A stretch of 64,000 nucleotides of DNA, taken from positions 1-64,000 of IMG/VR virus record IMGVR_UViG_2923350032_000001, one strand, 5' to 3'. Below, one piece after another: positions 6,103-31,465 of this stretch; position 1 is the first letter of the stretch, and each line of letters opens with the position of its first letter. Below the pieces are notes generated by a model, which saw nothing but the letters and a program-made list of their open reading frames with translations, was not told the origin of the DNA and ran no database searches. This DNA is from a virus. Taxonomy: Duplodnaviria; Heunggongvirae; Uroviricota; Caudoviricetes. Made by a program: the position numbers and the translations under genes.

Positions 6103-7146
6103 GTGAAAGCCATTATTACTCCCTTTGTACAAAAAGAGCTTGGCGTCGCCACATTCAAAGTGGATCAGGAAGTCAGAAAGCTGGTGGAGGCTGGCCGTAA
6201 ATTTATTATGGAGCCGGTGCCGCGTGAGTTAATCGAGCACATGGACGACGGCCTCGTTGTTTCCGAGCAAACTATGGCAACAAATGAGGCGTTGCAGCCG
6301 TTTTTTAACAGCGATGAACTGTTTCGCCGTATTGGTGGAATTGACTCGCTGGTGGCGTGGTTGCGCAGGAAAGAGGGGCAATGCCAGGCCGCAGATCGTA
6401 GTTGGTGTGACAACCATATTGTCCACGCTAAACGAGACAATAGCGCGGTGTTGCTGTGCTGGCATCACGATAACCATTACCGGATGCGTGGTTTTAATGA
6501 GCTGAAAGAAACGCTGCATAATAATCGCGTTAACTGGATACTGGATGTCGCCCGTCAGGAAATGGGCCTTTCAAATAGCCATGATTTAAGTATTCAGGAG
6601 CTGTGCTGGTGGGCTTTCATGCGCAACATGATGCACCTGATGCCGGAAGAAGTCTGCCGCATATCAATAAATAAGATGAAGGCTGCTCCGCAGGATAGCG
6701 GACCTTTGAAAGAGGCGGATATTCGCCCGTATGACGATCGTGCTACAGCATATGTTCAGATGATGGAAGAACGCGCCGCGCCGATGCGTGCAAAAGTATG
6801 CCCTGTGGATGTTGACTCCGACCCTGGCACGGCGCATTTCAAAATACCAAAACTGCAATCGCTAAAATTACCCGAGTACATGGACTTTGTTGCTTCCCGT
6901 CCGTGCTGTGGATGTGGAGCTGCGGGAGCTGGCGCTCGCATTACGCCTTATATCGTTCGTCATAGTCGATTATGCGCGCATGACATTTACGCAATTCCTC
7001 TGTGCCAGTCATGCCAGCGTGATATTGAGCGTGACCGCGATAATTGGGAGAAGACGCACGGCAGGCTGGCGATGCATCAACGATTGTTCTTTGATTACGC
7101 GCTTGGAGTCGGCGCTATCACAAGTCACTCGTCGAGCGTTAGATAA
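6103..7146 (+). CDS. pdcB: P1 PdcB-like protein, Cys-rich
   Basis: 347-aa ORF between doc and lpa, as in P1 gene order. Confidence 0.5.
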
Positions 7147-7234
7147 AATTGCTCTAATGTATTGCTATTTCTTTAATCGAGGGTATTATATTCGTCGTTG
7201 ATTAGTTGACATGGGCTAATCAGTAGGTGACAGG

Positions 7235-7687
7235 ATGTTACTTAACTGGCAGGGACGCCACTTCATGGAAATAAATCACTCACGAATTACATCGTATGAG
7301 ATTGCGGATTACATGATTCGCACTAAATCTCTTCTATCAGCGAAAGAACTCGCAGCAATCCTTGAAAAGGAATACCCGCATCTGGATGTCGATAAGCGCG
7401 ATGTTTATCTGCGCTTAAAGGCTATCGCTGTGTCTAAGTATTCGTCTGTTTTGATTGATGACAGTACACGCCCACGTAGATTTCAGATCCACTCTCTGAA
7501 TCCTGAATTCTTTCGCCGTAGCCGCGCTCCGCGCCGGTTTGATGAAAAACTCCAGAACGAACTCTATATGACGCAGGACGAAAAGGAACGCCGGGAGCAC
7601 CAGCCTTGGGTAATGGCGCGTCAACTTTTCAATAAGGTGGCCCGTCAGCACCGTCATTACGGTAATGCCACATCCGCACGTATCTGA
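7235..7687 (+). CDS. lpa: Late promoter activator Lpa
   Basis: About 150-aa ORF directly upstream of pacA; true start may be the internal Met at about 7265. Confidence 0.6.
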   Translation: MLLNWQGRHFMEINHSRITSYEIADYMIRTKSLLSAKELAAILEKEYPHLDVDKRDVYLRLKAIAVSKYSSVLIDDSTRPRRFQIHSLNPEFFRRSRAPRRFDEKLQNELYMTQDEKERREHQPWVMARQLFNKVARQHRHYGNATSARI

Positions 7688-26993: not shown

Positions 26994-27839
26994 ATGCTGG
27001 CTAAAGTCACTTTCCTGAGCTGTATAACGATGAGCGATTTTACTTTTTCTGGCTATGAATTGGCCTGCTTTGTAACACACTCCGGTCTATCCCGTAGCGC
27101 CGGGCATATCCTGTCGCAATGTGCAAATCTCGCGGCAACAACCAGTGAATACTTCATTCACAAGCCTCACCGCCTGATCGCGGCAGAAACTGGTTATAGT
27201 CAATCAACCGTCGTTCGTGCATTCCGTGAAGCTGTAAACAAAGGAATCCTGTCTGTAGAGATTGTTATCGGCGATCACCGTGAACGTCGCGCTAACCTGT
27301 ACCGGTTTACACCATCCTTTTTGGCCTTCGCACAACAAGCCAAAAATGCGCTGATTGAAAGCAAATTAAAGATCTCTTCAGCGGCAACTAAGGTTAAAGC
27401 TGTTCTCGCTAAGACATTAGCTTTATTTAATTTTTTATCCACACCCCCATGTCAAAATGATACCCCCTCCCCCTGTCAGGATGACGTGGCAATAAAGAAT
27501 AAGAAGTCACAAGTTAAAAAAACAAAAAGATCAGTTTCCGGCGGTGCCGGAACGATCAGACTCAAAAAATTGACTTCATGGATCGCTGAGACAAAAGCAA
27601 AGGCTGACAATCTGCGGTTATCCAAAAAACGCGCTCAAAAACATGAGTTCAAGCAGAAAGTAGAGGCGGCAGCGCGGAAATATGCTTACCTGAAGAACAA
27701 GCGTTCTCCTGATATTGGCGGGGTATCAAACTTCGATAATCTGCCGCATTGCATGACGGTAAACGAAGCTCTTAATGCGGTTTTAGCCAAAAATAAAGAT
27801 AACGAACAATGGGGTATACCGGCAGGATTCAGAGGGTGA
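26994..27839 (+). CDS. repL: RepL, lytic replicon initiator (oriL expected inside)
   Basis: 281-aa ORF in the P1 kilA-repL arrangement. Confidence 0.85.
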   Translation: MLAKVTFLSCITMSDFTFSGYELACFVTHSGLSRSAGHILSQCANLAATTSEYFIHKPHRLIAAETGYSQSTVVRAFREAVNKGILSVEIVIGDHRERRANLYRFTPSFLAFAQQAKNALIESKLKISSAATKVKAVLAKTLALFNFLSTPPCQNDTPSPCQDDVAIKNKKSQVKKTKRSVSGGAGTIRLKKLTSWIAETKAKADNLRLSKKRAQKHEFKQKVEAAARKYAYLKNKRSPDIGGVSNFDNLPHCMTVNEALNAVLAKNKDNEQWGIPAGFRG

Positions 27840-28135
27840 TAGATTGCTCTAATCTGGAGTCACCTGGCGTTTTCAGTTTGAGGTCGGAGATGCAATCTGA
27901 TTTTTTACAGTTAGCGATCGCTTTTGCAGGATATGTTTGTATTGGCTTCTGTGTATACATGATCAGCCGAAAAATGCTTGTCGATATCGACCGCAAAGAA
28001 CAAGCAGAGGAGATCTTAGTATGGATTTTCTTTGGCGCGGTCTGGCCATTAGGGATCATGTTTGCTGCAACATTTCTTCTGATGTGGATATTCACCCTTC
28101 CAGGTGATTTCTATAGAAAAAAAGCCAGACATTGA
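27809..28135 (+). CDS. Small membrane protein (two TM helices)
   Basis: 108-aa ORF with hydrophobic segments. Confidence 0.4.
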   Translation: MGYTGRIQRVIDCSNLESPGVFSLRSEMQSDFLQLAIAFAGYVCIGFCVYMISRKMLVDIDRKEQAEEILVWIFFGAVWPLGIMFAATFLLMWIFTLPGDFYRKKARH

Positions 28136-28199
28136 TACAATCGTTGCGGGTGCTTGAGGCTATCTGCTTCAGGCATTACCCGAAAAGCAGATAGAAGAA

Positions 28200-28300
28200 A
28201 GCCCCAGATAACATTACGCGTCCTGCAAGACGCTTAACATTAATCTGAGGCCATATCTATGCTTAGCATACGTAGATTAGCCTCTTACCGACCAAAAGGT
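28200..28300 (-). ncRNA. sok: Expected Sok-type antisense RNA region
   Basis: Inferred from standard hok/mok/sok architecture only. Confidence 0.3.
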
Positions 28301-28468
28301 CAAGGAGAAGCAGGCTATGAAGCAGCAAAAAGCGATGTTAATCGCTCTGATCGTCATCTGTTTAACCGTCATTGTGACGGCACTGGTAACGAGGAAAGAC
28401 CTCTGCGAGGTACGAATCCGAACCGGCCAGACGGAGGTCACTGTCTTCACAGCCTACGAATCTGAAAG
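28259..28468 (+). CDS. mok: Mok-like overlapping reading frame of the hok locus
   Basis: 68-aa ORF overlapping hok in another frame. Confidence 0.5.
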
Positions 28469-28472
28469 GTAA
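28317..28472 (+). CDS. hok: Hok/Gef-family type I membrane toxin
   Basis: 51 codons MKQQKAMLIALIVICLTVIVTALVTRKDLCEVRIRTGQTEVTVFTAYESER; below the ORF-track size cutoff; closest to HokD/RelF-type sequences from memory. Confidence 0.85.
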   Translation: MKQQKAMLIALIVICLTVIVTALVTRKDLCEVRIRTGQTEVTVFTAYESER

Positions 28473-28492
28473 GAGACCTGGCGGGGAGAGAT

Positions 28493-29835
28493 CCCATAAG
28501 CGCTAACTTAAGGGTTGAACCATCTGAAGAATGCGACGCCTCGGTGCCTCGTTAAGACGATGCCTCGCGTTCTTCAATTGCGTTTTGTAGGCTGTCAGGG
28601 ATACTGTCCCACGAATGGCCACCTGTAAGCTCCAGATGACCATTTTTGTTATTCTCCACAACGAGTTAGTTCTTCTTTTCGGATCCGGCACTTCTGGGGG
28701 GGAAATCCAGCGATGGCTGGATTATGTCGTCAATTAAAAATGCGGCGAGTAGATTAGCAAATATCCACGCTTTCGCGAGTTCAGGTTCCTTTGCACGCAA
28801 AGCATCCAGGTGCAGCAAACTTTTGAGCCGCTTAAAAGCCAGTTCAATTTGCCATCGCAGACGGTAACAATCAGCCACTTGCTCTGCTGAATATTCATCT
28901 TCCGGTAATGATGTTAGCAATAGCACATGGCCCGCTGCTTCCAGCGTTTCCGCCTGAACTACTCGTCCTTTTCGACGATTCTCGCTGAGCAGTCGGGTTT
29001 TACTGATTAATGCTTTTTCGGGAGGAAGTGATACGGCAATGAGACGTGCCGGAAAGGGAGCTCCGGCTTTTTTATTACCTGAATTGCCTATCATTACAGT
29101 GGTTTCACCGTTCTTACCGCAATCCAGCCCGCGCAGAAAACCCATCATGTCAAAGCGCATTCCTTCTGCAGTTAACCAGCGCAATCCTCGCCAGTGAACC
29201 CGGACGATATAATCAGCTTCTCCAAAAGCAAGTGAGCGGATACATTCGGGACGCGAACCGAATCCCCGGTCAGCAATGCGTATCTCGTCTGCCGTTTGCG
29301 CAAATCGGTCCAGCCGTTCAGCGTCTCTGCTGTCGGTTAGCTCAAAATCAGTGAACTGACAGGTATGAGGATCATATCCCATATGTAGTCGCCATTCAGC
29401 GCTGCCGCCCCCGGGCGCACTGATTGCTGTTCCATCGACAAGACGCAATCTCTTTCCGCTTGTACAACCCGTAACTGCGGCGCGTACAGCAAGTGTTTGT
29501 GCGGCAAGTATGCCAAACCAGTCGGCGGCATTCCGCAGCCGCTTCAGGAGAGCCACGTCAGATAATGTTGCAACGTCATGGAGCTGAGCCCATGCAGTGA
29601 CTTCACGTAATGACATCCCCCCGGGGCCGTAAGCCAGCCCCAGACGTAGCAGAGTTGCAGCATCACGAATTTCGCGGCGGCGGGTTAGAGCCCCGGCATT
29701 ACGTGCCGAAGTATCCAGTTCTTCGGGCTTACCAATATGGGCCAGAATTGCTGACCAGTTATCGTGAGAGTAATTCATCGGCACGTTAAATCATATCAGG
29801 CGTAATACCACAACCCTTAAGTTAGCGCTTATGGG
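28493..29835 (-). mobile_element. IS186 (IS4 family)
   Basis: Terminal inverted repeats CCCATAAGCGCTAACTTAAGGGTTG at both ends; GC-rich GGGG...CCCC target context. Confidence 0.85.
28666..29784 (-). CDS. IS186 transposase
   Basis: 372-aa ORF MPMNYSHDNWSAILAHIGKPEELDTSARNAG... Confidence 0.85.
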   Translation of the reverse strand: MPMNYSHDNWSAILAHIGKPEELDTSARNAGALTRRREIRDAATLLRLGLAYGPGGMSLREVTAWAQLHDVATLSDVALLKRLRNAADWFGILAAQTLAVRAAVTGCTSGKRLRLVDGTAISAPGGGSAEWRLHMGYDPHTCQFTDFELTDSRDAERLDRFAQTADEIRIADRGFGSRPECIRSLAFGEADYIVRVHWRGLRWLTAEGMRFDMMGFLRGLDCGKNGETTVMIGNSGNKKAGAPFPARLIAVSLPPEKALISKTRLLSENRRKGRVVQAETLEAAGHVLLLTSLPEDEYSAEQVADCYRLRWQIELAFKRLKSLLHLDALRAKEPELAKAWIFANLLAAFLIDDIIQPSLDFPPRSAGSEKKN

Positions 29836-30140
29836 AGTGATCCCCGCCACTCTTCGTGTGTCTGGTAACCTCAATGCACCCTTTTCTCCCCAATAGTGTA
29901 AAACACAATGAAGTAGAAGGAGTTATTTCACATCATGCAAAGATTCAGACCATATCTCCCAATAGCCTTCGCGACATGATGACTTTCAGAAATATCTAGC
30001 TGTTAACAAAATTCCATACTTGCTTTGCTAATACCACCTAGATTATATATGGAAAAATACACCTAAAACTTAAACAAATTATATCCACAACAAACATCCA
30101 TCTATTAGGATTAAAATTAATTTAATAATAAATAATACAA

Positions 30141-30168
30141 CACCGGTTCATTTTCTAACAAACCGGTG
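30141..30168 (-). terminator. Rho-independent terminator after the MazG-like gene
   Basis: Stem CACCGGTT/AACCGGTG with T-rich tail on the minus strand. Confidence 0.5.
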
Positions 30169-30175
30169 GGCACCA

Positions 30176-31168
30176 TTATTGGAATAACTTACTGATTACA
30201 TTAAAAACATTAAGGGCGTTACTTGCCACACTAGACATCTTGGCTGAATTTTTTTCGATTGAGTCAAGAACACTTTCGACTTCCGATAAAGTTCTTCTGC
30301 TATCTGCATCTTTTCCTGAGTCTATCGCATCTTTAATTGCAGATATAGCAGACTCTAAATTCTCCTTAAACTCACCTGTCGTCTCATCCTTCAAGAGAAG
30401 TTCTAACTCTTGTTTAAGTTTTTCCAATGATGCTCTTTTCTCATCAGTTTTACTAATCTTCCCTGAATAACTGACACAAACACATTCTCTTTTATTGCAG
30501 ACAGGACAACCATTTAGATAATAACTTTCAAACGCCTCGCCAAGATCATCATCTTTAAAAATAATCCCCCATAAAGAAAACAACCAAGCATATATATCAG
30601 CACACTCTTCATGAAGATTTTCTTTGTTGTAATTTTTATCTTCAATTGATTTAGCATAAGCCTCTTGCAACTCACCCAACTCTTCGAATAACCTGGATGA
30701 ATGATAAAACCCACCAAAAGTAGACCAAATGGTTCTATTCGACGGATAGATGTCATTAATCATTCGTGGCGCATAAGGCGGAAATTGCATAGGTTTAATA
30801 GCGTTATATTTATTGAAAAGCTCATCTTTAATTCCTTTTGCGCTTCTTATTTTCTCTGGCTTTCTGTGTGTTTGAGAACAGGAACAAGGCGCCCCTAAGC
30901 AATAAGGACAGCAACTAGGAAATTTTTTATAAAATGCTTCCTGTGGTTGTATTTCAAGTTTATCACAGATTGCAAAAAGCCAAGACAATGCTTCTATATA
31001 GGTATTTTTTAATAATTCTTTATCCTGATTACCATCACGAATAAACTCACGTGTTAAATAAGCTGTTTTCCTTGTCAGATAAGAGTACATATACTCAAAT
31101 GATTTTTCTTCATTTTTTTTGCTGTAAATACCTACAATAATATTGCTCATATCATTGATACGTAACAT
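30176..31168 (-). CDS. Tandem MazG-like NTP-pyrophosphohydrolase-fold protein with two Cys4 zinc ribbons and a C-terminal coiled coil
   Basis: 331 aa from the ATG with AAGAGGA RBS (MLRINDMSN...); motifs FEELGELQEA...EECADIYAWLFSLWGII, CCPYCLGAPCSC, CPVCNKRECVC; low-GC gene. Confidence 0.55.
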   Translation of the reverse strand: MLRINDMSNIIVGIYSKKNEEKSFEYMYSYLTRKTAYLTREFIRDGNQDKELLKNTYIEALSWLFAICDKLEIQPQEAFYKKFPSCCPYCLGAPCSCSQTHRKPEKIRSAKGIKDELFNKYNAIKPMQFPPYAPRMINDIYPSNRTIWSTFGGFYHSSRLFEELGELQEAYAKSIEDKNYNKENLHEECADIYAWLFSLWGIIFKDDDLGEAFESYYLNGCPVCNKRECVCVSYSGKISKTDEKRASLEKLKQELELLLKDETTGEFKENLESAISAIKDAIDSGKDADSRRTLSEVESVLDSIEKNSAKMSSVASNALNVFNVISKLFQ

Positions 31169-31465
31169 GACATTCCTCTTAAATAAGCCAATACTTCCTA
31201 GAACCATATATGCTTCGACAAAGATTAACGGACATCTTGCCTTCACAAACTTTGACGCTACATAAATTTAACCATGTGCATACTAAATATTTAAGGTAGA
31301 AAAGTATAGGAGTATTTATTAATAGGTAACTGTTAGTTTACACTCACTTCATACCAGAGTATTTACAAGATGTTATTTTACTCTATTCGCTAGGCGGTGG
31401 AATGCGGTTGTATCAAGGGGAGGTAAACCTCCCCCGAAGAAGATTAAAAGTACAAGGGATAACAC

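What the first reader, a model, noticed from the sequence alone, without database searches (positions are those of the whole stretch)
30176..31168. Orphan tandem MazG-like protein with two Cys4 zinc ribbons on a low-GC island
The 331-aa protein has two consecutive MazG/HisE-like all-alpha NTP-pyrophosphohydrolase signatures, each followed by a Cys4 cluster, then a coiled-coil tail. The gene is markedly AT-rich, has its own strong RBS and terminator, and sits between IS186 and the structural genes. Nucleotide-hydrolysing MazG-like proteins can act in phage-host conflict, so this is a candidate defence or counter-defence effector.
Basis: partly seen in the sequence, partly recalled or inferred. 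Interest (0 to 1): 0.6.

Follow-up and report, generated by a model that had tools for sequence, protein, structure and literature searches.

The report
Tandem MazG-like prophage cargo enzyme
A rare, AT-rich single-gene insert in a P1-like phage-plasmid encodes a duplicated MazG-type nucleotide pyrophosphatase, with one dead and one intact catalytic half, whose relatives ride in spare slots of other prophages or are fused to immune effector domains, so it is a credible but untested phage-conflict gene.

Summary
A 330-aa ORF (30176-31168, minus strand) sits alone on a 1.5-kb, 34% GC island (about 29894-31432). The island lies in the repL-bplB variable slot of a P1-like phage-plasmid, next to hok/sok and an IS186/IS421 copy.

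The gene is not P1 backbone: about 2.5% of P1-like elements carry it, and P1 itself does not. It is not an orphan family either, with 992 representative clusters across many phyla.

Close relatives are solitary cargo in P2-like, lambdoid and filamentous prophages. Distant relatives are fused to TIR, CHAT, deaminase, kinase or GGDEF domains.

My best reading is a prophage-borne enzyme that acts on the nucleotide pool and protects the lysogen (confidence 0.45). Rivals are counter-defence, a sensor role and plain house-cleaning. Nothing has been tested experimentally.

The parts
29894..31432 (.). Low-GC (0.34) accessory island carrying one gene. It replaces about 25 bp of the P1-like backbone between the hok/sok module and the end of bplB.
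   Evidence: Related plasmids L008 and L009 join window 29893 (28494 in the IS-free L009) directly to 31433.
30176..31168 (-). CDS of the 330-aa tandem MazG-like protein (stop codon included).
31173..31180 (-). Shine-Dalgarno sequence AAGAGGAA, 4 nt upstream of the ATG.
   Evidence: Read directly from the sequence.
30872..31150 (-). Repeat 1 (residues 7-99): a MazG-like helical module that has lost the catalytic acids. R33, K34, Y37 and R40 align with E162, E163, E166 and E169 of repeat 2.
   Evidence: hhalign of the two halves. Profile match to MazG 1vmg at E 4.5e-10. Column counts.
30878..30910 (-). First Cys4 cluster, CPYC-x4-CSC (C87, C90, C95, C97).
   Evidence: Invariant in 74 of 74 homologues.
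30470..30772 (-). Repeat 2 (residues 133-233): a MazG-like module with an intact active-site signature.
30596..30685 (-). Metal-binding motif E162-E163-x2-E166 ... E188-x2-D191 (EXXE-X21-EXXD).
   Evidence: Conserved in 66-71 of 74 homologues. Aligns with the same motif of AF_0060 and SSO3215.
30476..30508 (-). Second Cys4 cluster, CPVC-x4-CVC (C221, C224, C229, C231).
   Evidence: Invariant in 74 of 74 homologues.
30179..30460 (-). C-terminal helical tail (residues 237-330), predicted as four helices. No specific homologue was found.
   Evidence: AF2 block pLDDT 58-79. The only hits are designed helical bundles and keratin, at E 0.002 or worse. Weak DUF4404 and LmuB hits.
30141..30168 (-). 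Intrinsic-terminator-like hairpin with a T-rich tail directly after the stop codon.
31417..31435 (-). Hairpin GGGGGAGGTTTACCTCCCC at the island edge, just downstream of bplB. It has a weak T tail, so read-through from the late operon cannot be excluded.
   Evidence: Read. The terminator scan did not flag it.

Best explanation
This is a self-contained accessory ('moron') cassette in the repL-bplB variable slot of a P1-like phage-plasmid. It encodes a pseudo-dimeric enzyme of the all-alpha NTP pyrophosphohydrolase superfamily (MazG, dimeric dUTPase).

Shown by sequence and structure prediction:
- The protein is an internal duplication of one MazG-like helical module.
- Each copy is capped by an invariant CPxC-x4-CxC cluster.
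- The second copy keeps the full EXXE-X21-EXXD Mg-binding motif.
- In the first copy those positions are basic or aromatic.

Inferred:
- The two copies pack like a MazG homodimer, or like a dimeric-dUTPase monomer, and form a single active site.
- The dead copy supplies substrate-binding or regulatory contacts.
- The Cys4 clusters bind structural zinc.
- The enzyme cleaves an NTP or dNTP to NMP plus pyrophosphate.

Inferred from context: the gene serves the lysogen in conflict with other phages. It would remove a nucleotide that an incoming phage needs, either by depleting a canonical dNTP or by selectively destroying a phage-modified dNTP. The helical tail would mediate oligomerisation or control.
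For: Fold and motifs. Several homologues exceed the Pfam MazG gathering score.

Cassette status:
- The island is absent from otherwise 99%-identical backbones.
- It is found in only about 2.5% of P1-like elements.
- It has its own RBS and terminator.
- There is no conserved partner gene.

Conflict role:
- Close homologues are solitary cargo in the non-essential Orf30 slot of P2-like prophages.
- Others sit at P2-like prophage ends, in lambdoid prophages, and in the cargo slot of an 8-kb Vibrio filamentous phage.
- One homologue lies beside a 1234-aa reverse-transcriptase-like gene.
- Distant homologues are fused to TIR, CAP12/Pycsar-TIR, CHAT, a PNP-like domain, dCMP/cytidine deaminase, Ser/Thr kinase and GGDEF.
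- Versions of about 230 aa with only the tandem core exist, so the core can act on its own.
- Only 1 of 50,697 phage records encodes a detectable homologue, and none is a virulent phage.
- Small variable slots of prophages are known reservoirs of defence genes (PMC9122126).
- MazG-like domains have been predicted, but not validated, as defence effectors that target NTPs (PMC13092281; bioRxiv 10.64898/2026.01.15.699771).
Against: - No PADLOC model matches, and no homologue has a demonstrated phenotype.
- Defence genes among neighbours are few: 3 of 58 neighbour proteins hit a defence model, and there was no control set.
- Neither substrate nor trigger is known. An unregulated NTPase would be costly to the host.
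- The gene has the orientation and position of pmgF, downstream of the late operon. The hairpin after bplB has a weak T tail, so expression late in the lytic cycle, for the phage's own benefit, is possible.
- No convincing sigma-70 promoter was found upstream.
- A phage MazG-like enzyme with the opposite role (Atd1, anti-defence) is on record (PMC10419184).
- One input module joined to GGDEF or kinase outputs is also the typical pattern of a sensor domain.
- About 5-8 of 74 homologues have lost catalytic acids in the second repeat as well.
Confidence: 0.45

Rival explanations
1. Counter-defence or auxiliary gene that works for the phage-plasmid itself. Like the phage MazG-like enzyme Atd1, it would hydrolyse an alarmone such as (p)ppGpp, or an immune signalling nucleotide. 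That would keep the host permissive during lytic growth or plasmid establishment.
For: A MazG-like phage enzyme that neutralises TIR-STING-driven death by degrading (p)ppGpp is described (review PMC10419184). The gene has the same orientation as, and lies just downstream of, the late structural operon 23-22-21-pmgG-bplB, in the place of pmgF, behind a hairpin with a poor T tail. The structural neighbours among viral proteins are phage NTP pyrophosphatases.
Against: Homologues are nearly absent from sequenced phages and absent from virulent ones. They are common in cellular chromosomes of many phyla. Fusions to TIR, CHAT and CAP12-TIR are typical of host immune proteins, not of inhibitors. Carriage by a filamentous phage, which does not kill its host, fits a host-benefit gene better. 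No P1 late promoter or C1 operator is near the gene.
Confidence: 0.2
2. Nucleotide sensor rather than pool-depleting enzyme. The tandem MazG-Cys4 core would bind, and perhaps slowly hydrolyse, an infection-specific nucleotide and switch on an output. In relatives the output is a fused TIR, CHAT, kinase, GGDEF or deaminase domain. Here it would be the C-terminal helical tail, acting by oligomerisation, membrane action or partner binding.
For: One conserved module joined to many different output domains, at either end, is the usual signature of an input domain. Some members have lost the catalytic acids. The dead first repeat keeps conserved basic residues at the former metal site: K/R at position 40 in 64 of 74, and R/K at position 59 in 57 of 74. 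One clade has a conserved downstream protein with two predicted transmembrane helices that could be an effector.
Against: The catalytic motif is kept in about 90% of members, including this one. Core-only proteins of about 230 aa, with no output domain and no conserved partner, are common. The tail has no recognisable effector features and only modest model confidence.
Confidence: 0.17
3. Ordinary house-cleaning pyrophosphatase carried as neutral or mildly useful cargo, with no role in phage-host conflict. It would remove damaged or non-canonical nucleotides.
For: House-cleaning is the classical role proposed for the superfamily (Moroz et al. 2005, cited in PMC9503650). One homologue lies directly downstream of ribonucleotide reductase genes. 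Many neighbours of chromosomal homologues are housekeeping genes.
Against: This does not explain the repeated capture by four unrelated temperate-phage types in their non-essential slots, the patchy distribution, or the fusions to TIR, CHAT and CAP12-TIR.
Confidence: 0.12

Closest known systems
E. coli MazG (PDB 3cra), a tandem-domain NTP pyrophosphohydrolase
   Same: Two MazG-like modules on one chain. In E. coli MazG activity resides mainly in one of them (my recollection of Lee et al. 2008). Same superfamily and the same EXXE...EXXD metal motif.
   Different: There is no detectable sequence match, and the Foldseek match is insignificant (E 4.2). E. coli MazG has no Cys4 clusters and no helical tail. 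It is chromosomal, in the mazEFG operon, not prophage cargo.
Dimeric dUTPases (staphylococcal phage Dut 5myd; Campylobacter jejuni 1w2y)
   Different: Sequence identity is 6-8%. The dUTPase-specific motifs were not examined. The dUTPases have no Cys4 clusters and no tail. The substrate here is unknown.
Single-domain MazG proteins SSO3215 (1vmg), AF_0060 (2p06) and 2q73/2q5z (integron-cassette iMazG, to my recollection)
   Different: Those proteins are homodimers or tetramers of one active module. Here the two modules are fused, one of them is inactivated, and both are capped by Cys4 clusters.
Atd1, a phage MazG-like anti-defence pyrophosphatase
   Same: A MazG-type enzyme carried by a phage and used in phage-host conflict (PMC10419184).
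   Different: Atd1 helps the phage by degrading (p)ppGpp. The distribution and fusions of the present family point the other way.
Nucleotide-depleting defence enzymes: dGTPase, dCTP deaminase (AvcD), and PUA-Calcineurin-HAD with rare MazG-for-calcineurin swaps
   Same: The proposed working principle is the same: starving the phage of dNTPs. Some relatives are fused to a dCMP/cytidine deaminase domain. MazG-like domains have been proposed as NTP-targeting effectors.
   Different: The folds are unrelated. No PADLOC model hits. Depletion by this protein has not been shown.

Membership tests
MazG / all-alpha NTP pyrophosphohydrolase superfamily | All-alpha helical-bundle fold shared with MazG, HisE and dimeric dUTPase. 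| tested here: met
MazG / all-alpha NTP pyrophosphohydrolase superfamily | EXXE-X(12-28)-EXXD metal-binding motif. | tested here: met
   Present in repeat 2 only: E163-x2-E166, then 21 residues, then E188-x2-D191. Conserved in 66-71 of 74 homologues. Repeat 1 has R, K, Y and R at the aligned positions.
MazG / all-alpha NTP pyrophosphohydrolase superfamily | Score above the Pfam PF03819 gathering threshold. | tested here: not met
   The window protein scores 14.7 bits against a cut-off of 22. Homologues P0142, P0158 and P0138 score 27-29 bits, and P0011 and P0016 carry PF03819. No NCBIfam model matches.
MazG / all-alpha NTP pyrophosphohydrolase superfamily | Mg-dependent hydrolysis of NTP or dNTP to NMP plus PPi. 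| not testable with these tools
   Needs an enzyme assay.
Zinc ribbon | Two CxxC knuckles on separate beta-hairpins that together bind one Zn. | tested here: not met
   All four Cys lie within 11 residues (CPxC-x4-CxC), and DSSP on the model shows no strands at 83-109 or 217-236. A short Cys4 knuckle fits better. Metal binding itself cannot be tested here.
Known anti-phage defence systems (PADLOC-DB 2.0) | Match to a defence-protein model. | tested here: not met
   The only hit is a coiled-coil-type match to LmuB at E 0.015 in the tail.
Known anti-phage defence systems (PADLOC-DB 2.0) | Enrichment next to known defence genes. | tested here: inconclusive
   Three of 58 neighbour proteins from 7 loci hit defence models (PDC-S66, ThsB, a GajA/AriA-like ATPase), with no control set. 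One further homologue lies beside a large RT-like gene.
Known anti-phage defence systems (PADLOC-DB 2.0) | Protection against phage when expressed. | not testable with these tools
   Needs phage-challenge assays.
P1 backbone genes | Conserved across P1-like elements at a fixed position. | tested here: not met
   Absent from P1 (rlfA, rlfB and pmgF occupy the slot) and from all phage records. Present in 16 of 675-713 P1-like plasmids and 18 of 678-711 E. coli genomes with the backbone.
Atd1-type phage anti-defence MazG | Sequence relatedness to Atd1 and (p)ppGpp hydrolysis. | not tested
Known only from review PMC10419184.

The most novel reading that the evidence does not exclude
The tandem MazG-Cys4 module would define a widespread, so far undescribed immune module. 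Alone, as in this P1-like island, it would be a single-protein defence that recognises and destroys a nucleotide specific to infection, for example a phage-modified dNTP. Fused to TIR, CHAT, deaminase, kinase or GGDEF domains, the same module would act as the nucleotide-sensing input that fires those effectors.
Probability: 0.25. Interest if true: 0.8.

Novelty: new variant of a known kind. Interest (0 to 1): 0.55.

Why it matters
MazG-like domains have been predicted as immune effectors, but I found no experimental validation in the literature library I searched. This family gives a compact, single-gene, E. coli-native test case with clear catalytic residues to mutate.

If it defends, it adds pyrophosphohydrolysis to the known ways of attacking the nucleotide pool, alongside dGTPase, dCTP deaminase and ATP nucleosidase.

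If the module is a sensor, its fusions to TIR, CHAT, kinase and GGDEF domains would reveal a new input domain for bacterial immunity and signalling.

It also marks the repL-bplB interval of P1-like phage-plasmids as a variable cargo slot. At least five alternative contents were seen here.

Tried and rejected
- Known domains: Pfam, NCBIfam and PADLOC gave no hit above threshold for the window protein. PHROGs gave only a partial NTP-pyrophosphatase hit at 3.5e-6.
- Foldseek against PDB and BFVD gave no significant match, though the top ranks were dimeric dUTPases and phage NTP pyrophosphatases. The afdb50 library was unavailable.
- A conserved partner gene was sought by all-against-all BLAST of the neighbours of 36 loci. 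None was shared family-wide. A membrane-protein partner exists in one clade only and has no trace in the window.
- P1 regulatory signals: no late-promoter box and no C1 operator lie near the gene. No sigma-70 consensus match lies upstream of the start.
- Rfam found no RNA family inside the island.
- Literature: the protein accession returned nothing. The DefensePredictor supplements do not list it. The MazG mentions in an EHEC sRNA paper concern chromosomal mazEFG.
- 'Not a real gene' is rejected. The reasons are strong purifying selection on the motifs across 74 diverse homologues and identical annotation in 18 RefSeq genomes.
- 'Zinc ribbon' is rejected in favour of a short Cys4 knuckle.
- The first attempt to fetch genome loci with the broad alignment A2 failed for lack of a conserved stretch. 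A1 worked.

Full report
**Setting.** The window is a P1-like phage-plasmid. repL (26994-27839, plus strand) is followed by a small membrane ORF, a hok/sok module and an IS186/IS421 copy. The finding comes next, then the late structural genes bplB, pmgG, 21 and 22 on the minus strand. In P1 itself the interval between repL and bplB holds rlfA, rlfB and pmgF.

**The observation.** The ORF at 30176-31168 (minus strand) encodes 330 aa, and RefSeq annotates the identical CDS as 'MazG-like family protein'.
- An AAGAGGAA Shine-Dalgarno sequence lies 4 nt before the ATG.
- A 12-pair hairpin with a T-rich tail follows the stop codon.
- GC is 0.34 for the gene and the surrounding 1.5 kb, against 0.45-0.51 on either side.

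Two related plasmids lack the gene. Comparison with them shows that the island spans about 29894-31432 and replaces only about 25 bp of backbone, between the hok/sok region and the end of bplB. The IS186 copy (28495-29833) is an independent insertion.

**Anatomy of the protein.** An alignment of 28 close homologues, and then of 74 diverse homologues, shows two units. Profile-profile comparison of residues 1-100 with residues 128-235 gives 98% probability, E 1.9e-13, over 92 columns. The protein is therefore an internal duplication.
- A family profile matches solved MazG proteins with both halves. The N half matches 1vmg at E 4.5e-10. The C half matches 2q73 and 2q5z at about 2e-4.
- Each unit ends in CPxC-x4-CxC, and all eight cysteines are invariant in 74 of 74 sequences.
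- The second unit has E163-x2-E166, then 21 residues, then E188-x2-D191. This is the canonical MazG metal-binding motif, and 66-71 of the 74 homologues keep it.
- In the first unit the aligned positions are R33, K34, Y37 and R40. Across the family, position 40 is K/R in 64 of 74 and position 59 is R/K in 57 of 74. The first unit is thus a conserved but non-catalytic copy.
- Residues 237-330 are predicted as four helices at modest confidence and resemble nothing specific.

**Distribution.**
- No phage record carries the gene at DNA level.
- It occurs at 99.7% identity or higher in 16 PLSDB plasmids and in 18 complete E. coli genomes, always on plasmids of 93-144 kb.
- The adjacent structural genes occur in about 700 records of each collection. 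The island is therefore present in roughly 2.5% of P1-like elements.
- The same slot is variable. Alternatives seen are hok/sok only, hok/sok plus IS, a ParA-like gene with a DUF3892 gene, and the P1 arrangement with a DUF3800 gene.

**The wider family.** The word-indexed search found only 28 clusters, all Enterobacterales-like. The exhaustive profile search found 992 representatives at E 1e-3 or better, of which 449 are at 1e-10 or better. Loci were recovered from Proteobacteria, Acidobacteria, Chloroflexi, Bacteroidota, Planctomycetes, Patescibacteria and an archaeon. The double Cys4 hallmark, and a catalytic motif in the second half only, hold throughout. Three architectures recur:
- a core of about 230 aa alone;
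- core plus helical tail, as here;
- core fused to another domain.

Pfam scans of the long members gave these fusion partners:
- TIR, at either end;
- CAP12/Pycsar-type TIR;
- CHAT;
- a weak PNP_UDP_1 match;
- dCMP/cytidine deaminase;
- Ser/Thr kinase;
- GGDEF.

**Context of close relatives.** No neighbour gene is shared family-wide. Close homologues are solitary cargo in temperate elements of unrelated types:
- the non-essential Orf30 slot between S and V of P2-like prophages;
- the ends of P2-like prophages;
- the replication-to-Q region of lambdoid prophages;
- the accessory slot of an 8-kb Vibrio filamentous phage, which is the only hit among 50,697 phage records at protein level.

Others are chromosomal islets. 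One lies next to a 1234-aa reverse-transcriptase-like gene, and one lies downstream of nrdAB. Among 58 neighbour proteins from seven loci, three match defence models. That count is suggestive, but there was no control set.

**Interpretation.** The enzyme assignment is solid. The biological role is inferred. Three observations favour a host-protective role in conflict with other phages:
- repeated capture as a stand-alone gene in the spare slots of four kinds of temperate phage;
- near absence from sequenced phages, and absence from virulent ones;
- fusion to classic immune effector domains.

Such prophage slots are established reservoirs of defence genes (PMC9122126). Others have proposed MazG-like domains as NTP-targeting effectors, without validation. 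The simplest mechanism is hydrolysis of a nucleotide that the invader needs.

The deaminase fusions would fit conversion of dCTP to dUTP followed by its pyrophosphohydrolysis. That step is speculation.

**Weaknesses and rivals.**
- No defence model matches, and neither substrate nor trigger is known.
- Expression timing is unknown. The gene points the same way as the late operon, behind a hairpin with a weak T tail. No late promoter, C1 operator or good sigma-70 site was found.
- A phage MazG-like anti-defence enzyme, Atd1, is on record.
- One module joined to many output domains is also what a sensor domain looks like, and a few members have lost catalysis.

I therefore put defence by action on the nucleotide pool at 0.45, counter-defence at 0.20, a sensor role at 0.17 and plain house-cleaning at 0.12.

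**Novelty.** The superfamily is known, and the gene already carries a generic MazG-like name. New here are the defined architecture (dead copy plus live copy, both capped by Cys4, plus a tail), the size of the family, its fusion repertoire and its prophage-cargo habit. No Pfam, NCBIfam or PADLOC model covers it. I rate it a new variant of a known kind, of moderate interest, and directly testable in E. coli.

Noticed in passing
window 27840-31465 (repL to bplB): This interval is a variable cargo slot of P1-like phage-plasmids. Contents seen in related records: rlfA (DUF3800), rlfB and pmgF in P1; hok/sok only; hok/sok plus IS186; a ParA-like gene with a DUF3892 gene and a 198-aa ORF; and the present MazG-like island.
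   Followed up: partly
window 28148-28472: A hok/sok-type post-segregational killing module. Rfam sok scores 114.9 bits at 28148-28322, and a 51-aa Hok/Gef toxin ORF lies at 28317-28472 (Pfam E 2.4e-22).
   Followed up: yes
window 28495-29833: An IS186/IS421 copy with a 372-aa transposase (28666-29784, minus strand). It is inserted in a GC-rich site with an imperfect 10-bp duplication (GGAGAGATCC / GGAGTGATCC). The insertion is independent of the island, because plasmid L008 has the IS but not the island.
   Followed up: partly
L005 11038-11805; L006 11080-11826; L050 9077-9823; L051 8069-8806: In the Pantoea/Pectobacterium clade of homologues, a conserved 245-255-aa protein lies directly downstream of the MazG-like gene. 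It has two predicted transmembrane helices, a helical middle and no Pfam match. It could be a clade-specific partner or effector. Nothing equivalent is present in the window.
   Followed up: partly
L011 (PQ189347.1) 6649-7641: An 8-kb Vibrio cyclitrophicus filamentous phage (Tubulavirales) carries a full-length homologue (29% identity). It sits between the Zot-like gene and the repressor, which is the slot where filamentous phages carry accessory genes.
   Followed up: partly
L052 2155-8029: One homologue (P0028) lies immediately downstream of class I ribonucleotide reductase genes (nrdA-like and nrdB-like). This may hint at a link with dNTP supply, but it was seen only once.
   Followed up: no
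L053 2552-6256: Homologue P0020 is next to a 1234-aa protein with a weak reverse-transcriptase match, plus a 144-aa ORF. The pair may be a defence-associated RT system.
   Followed up: no
window 27809-28135: A small ORF just after repL encodes a hydrophobic protein (108 aa by the longest reading; annotated as about 81 aa in related plasmids). It has no family match and occupies the place where P1 has the Orlf operator and the rlfA promoter.
   Followed up: no
L001 1750-1971 (related plasmid pUTAK-22-3): The icd-like cell-division inhibitor gene upstream of ant is annotated as a pseudogene with an internal stop in the plasmid that is 100% identical over the island. I did not check whether the window shares this.
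   Followed up: no
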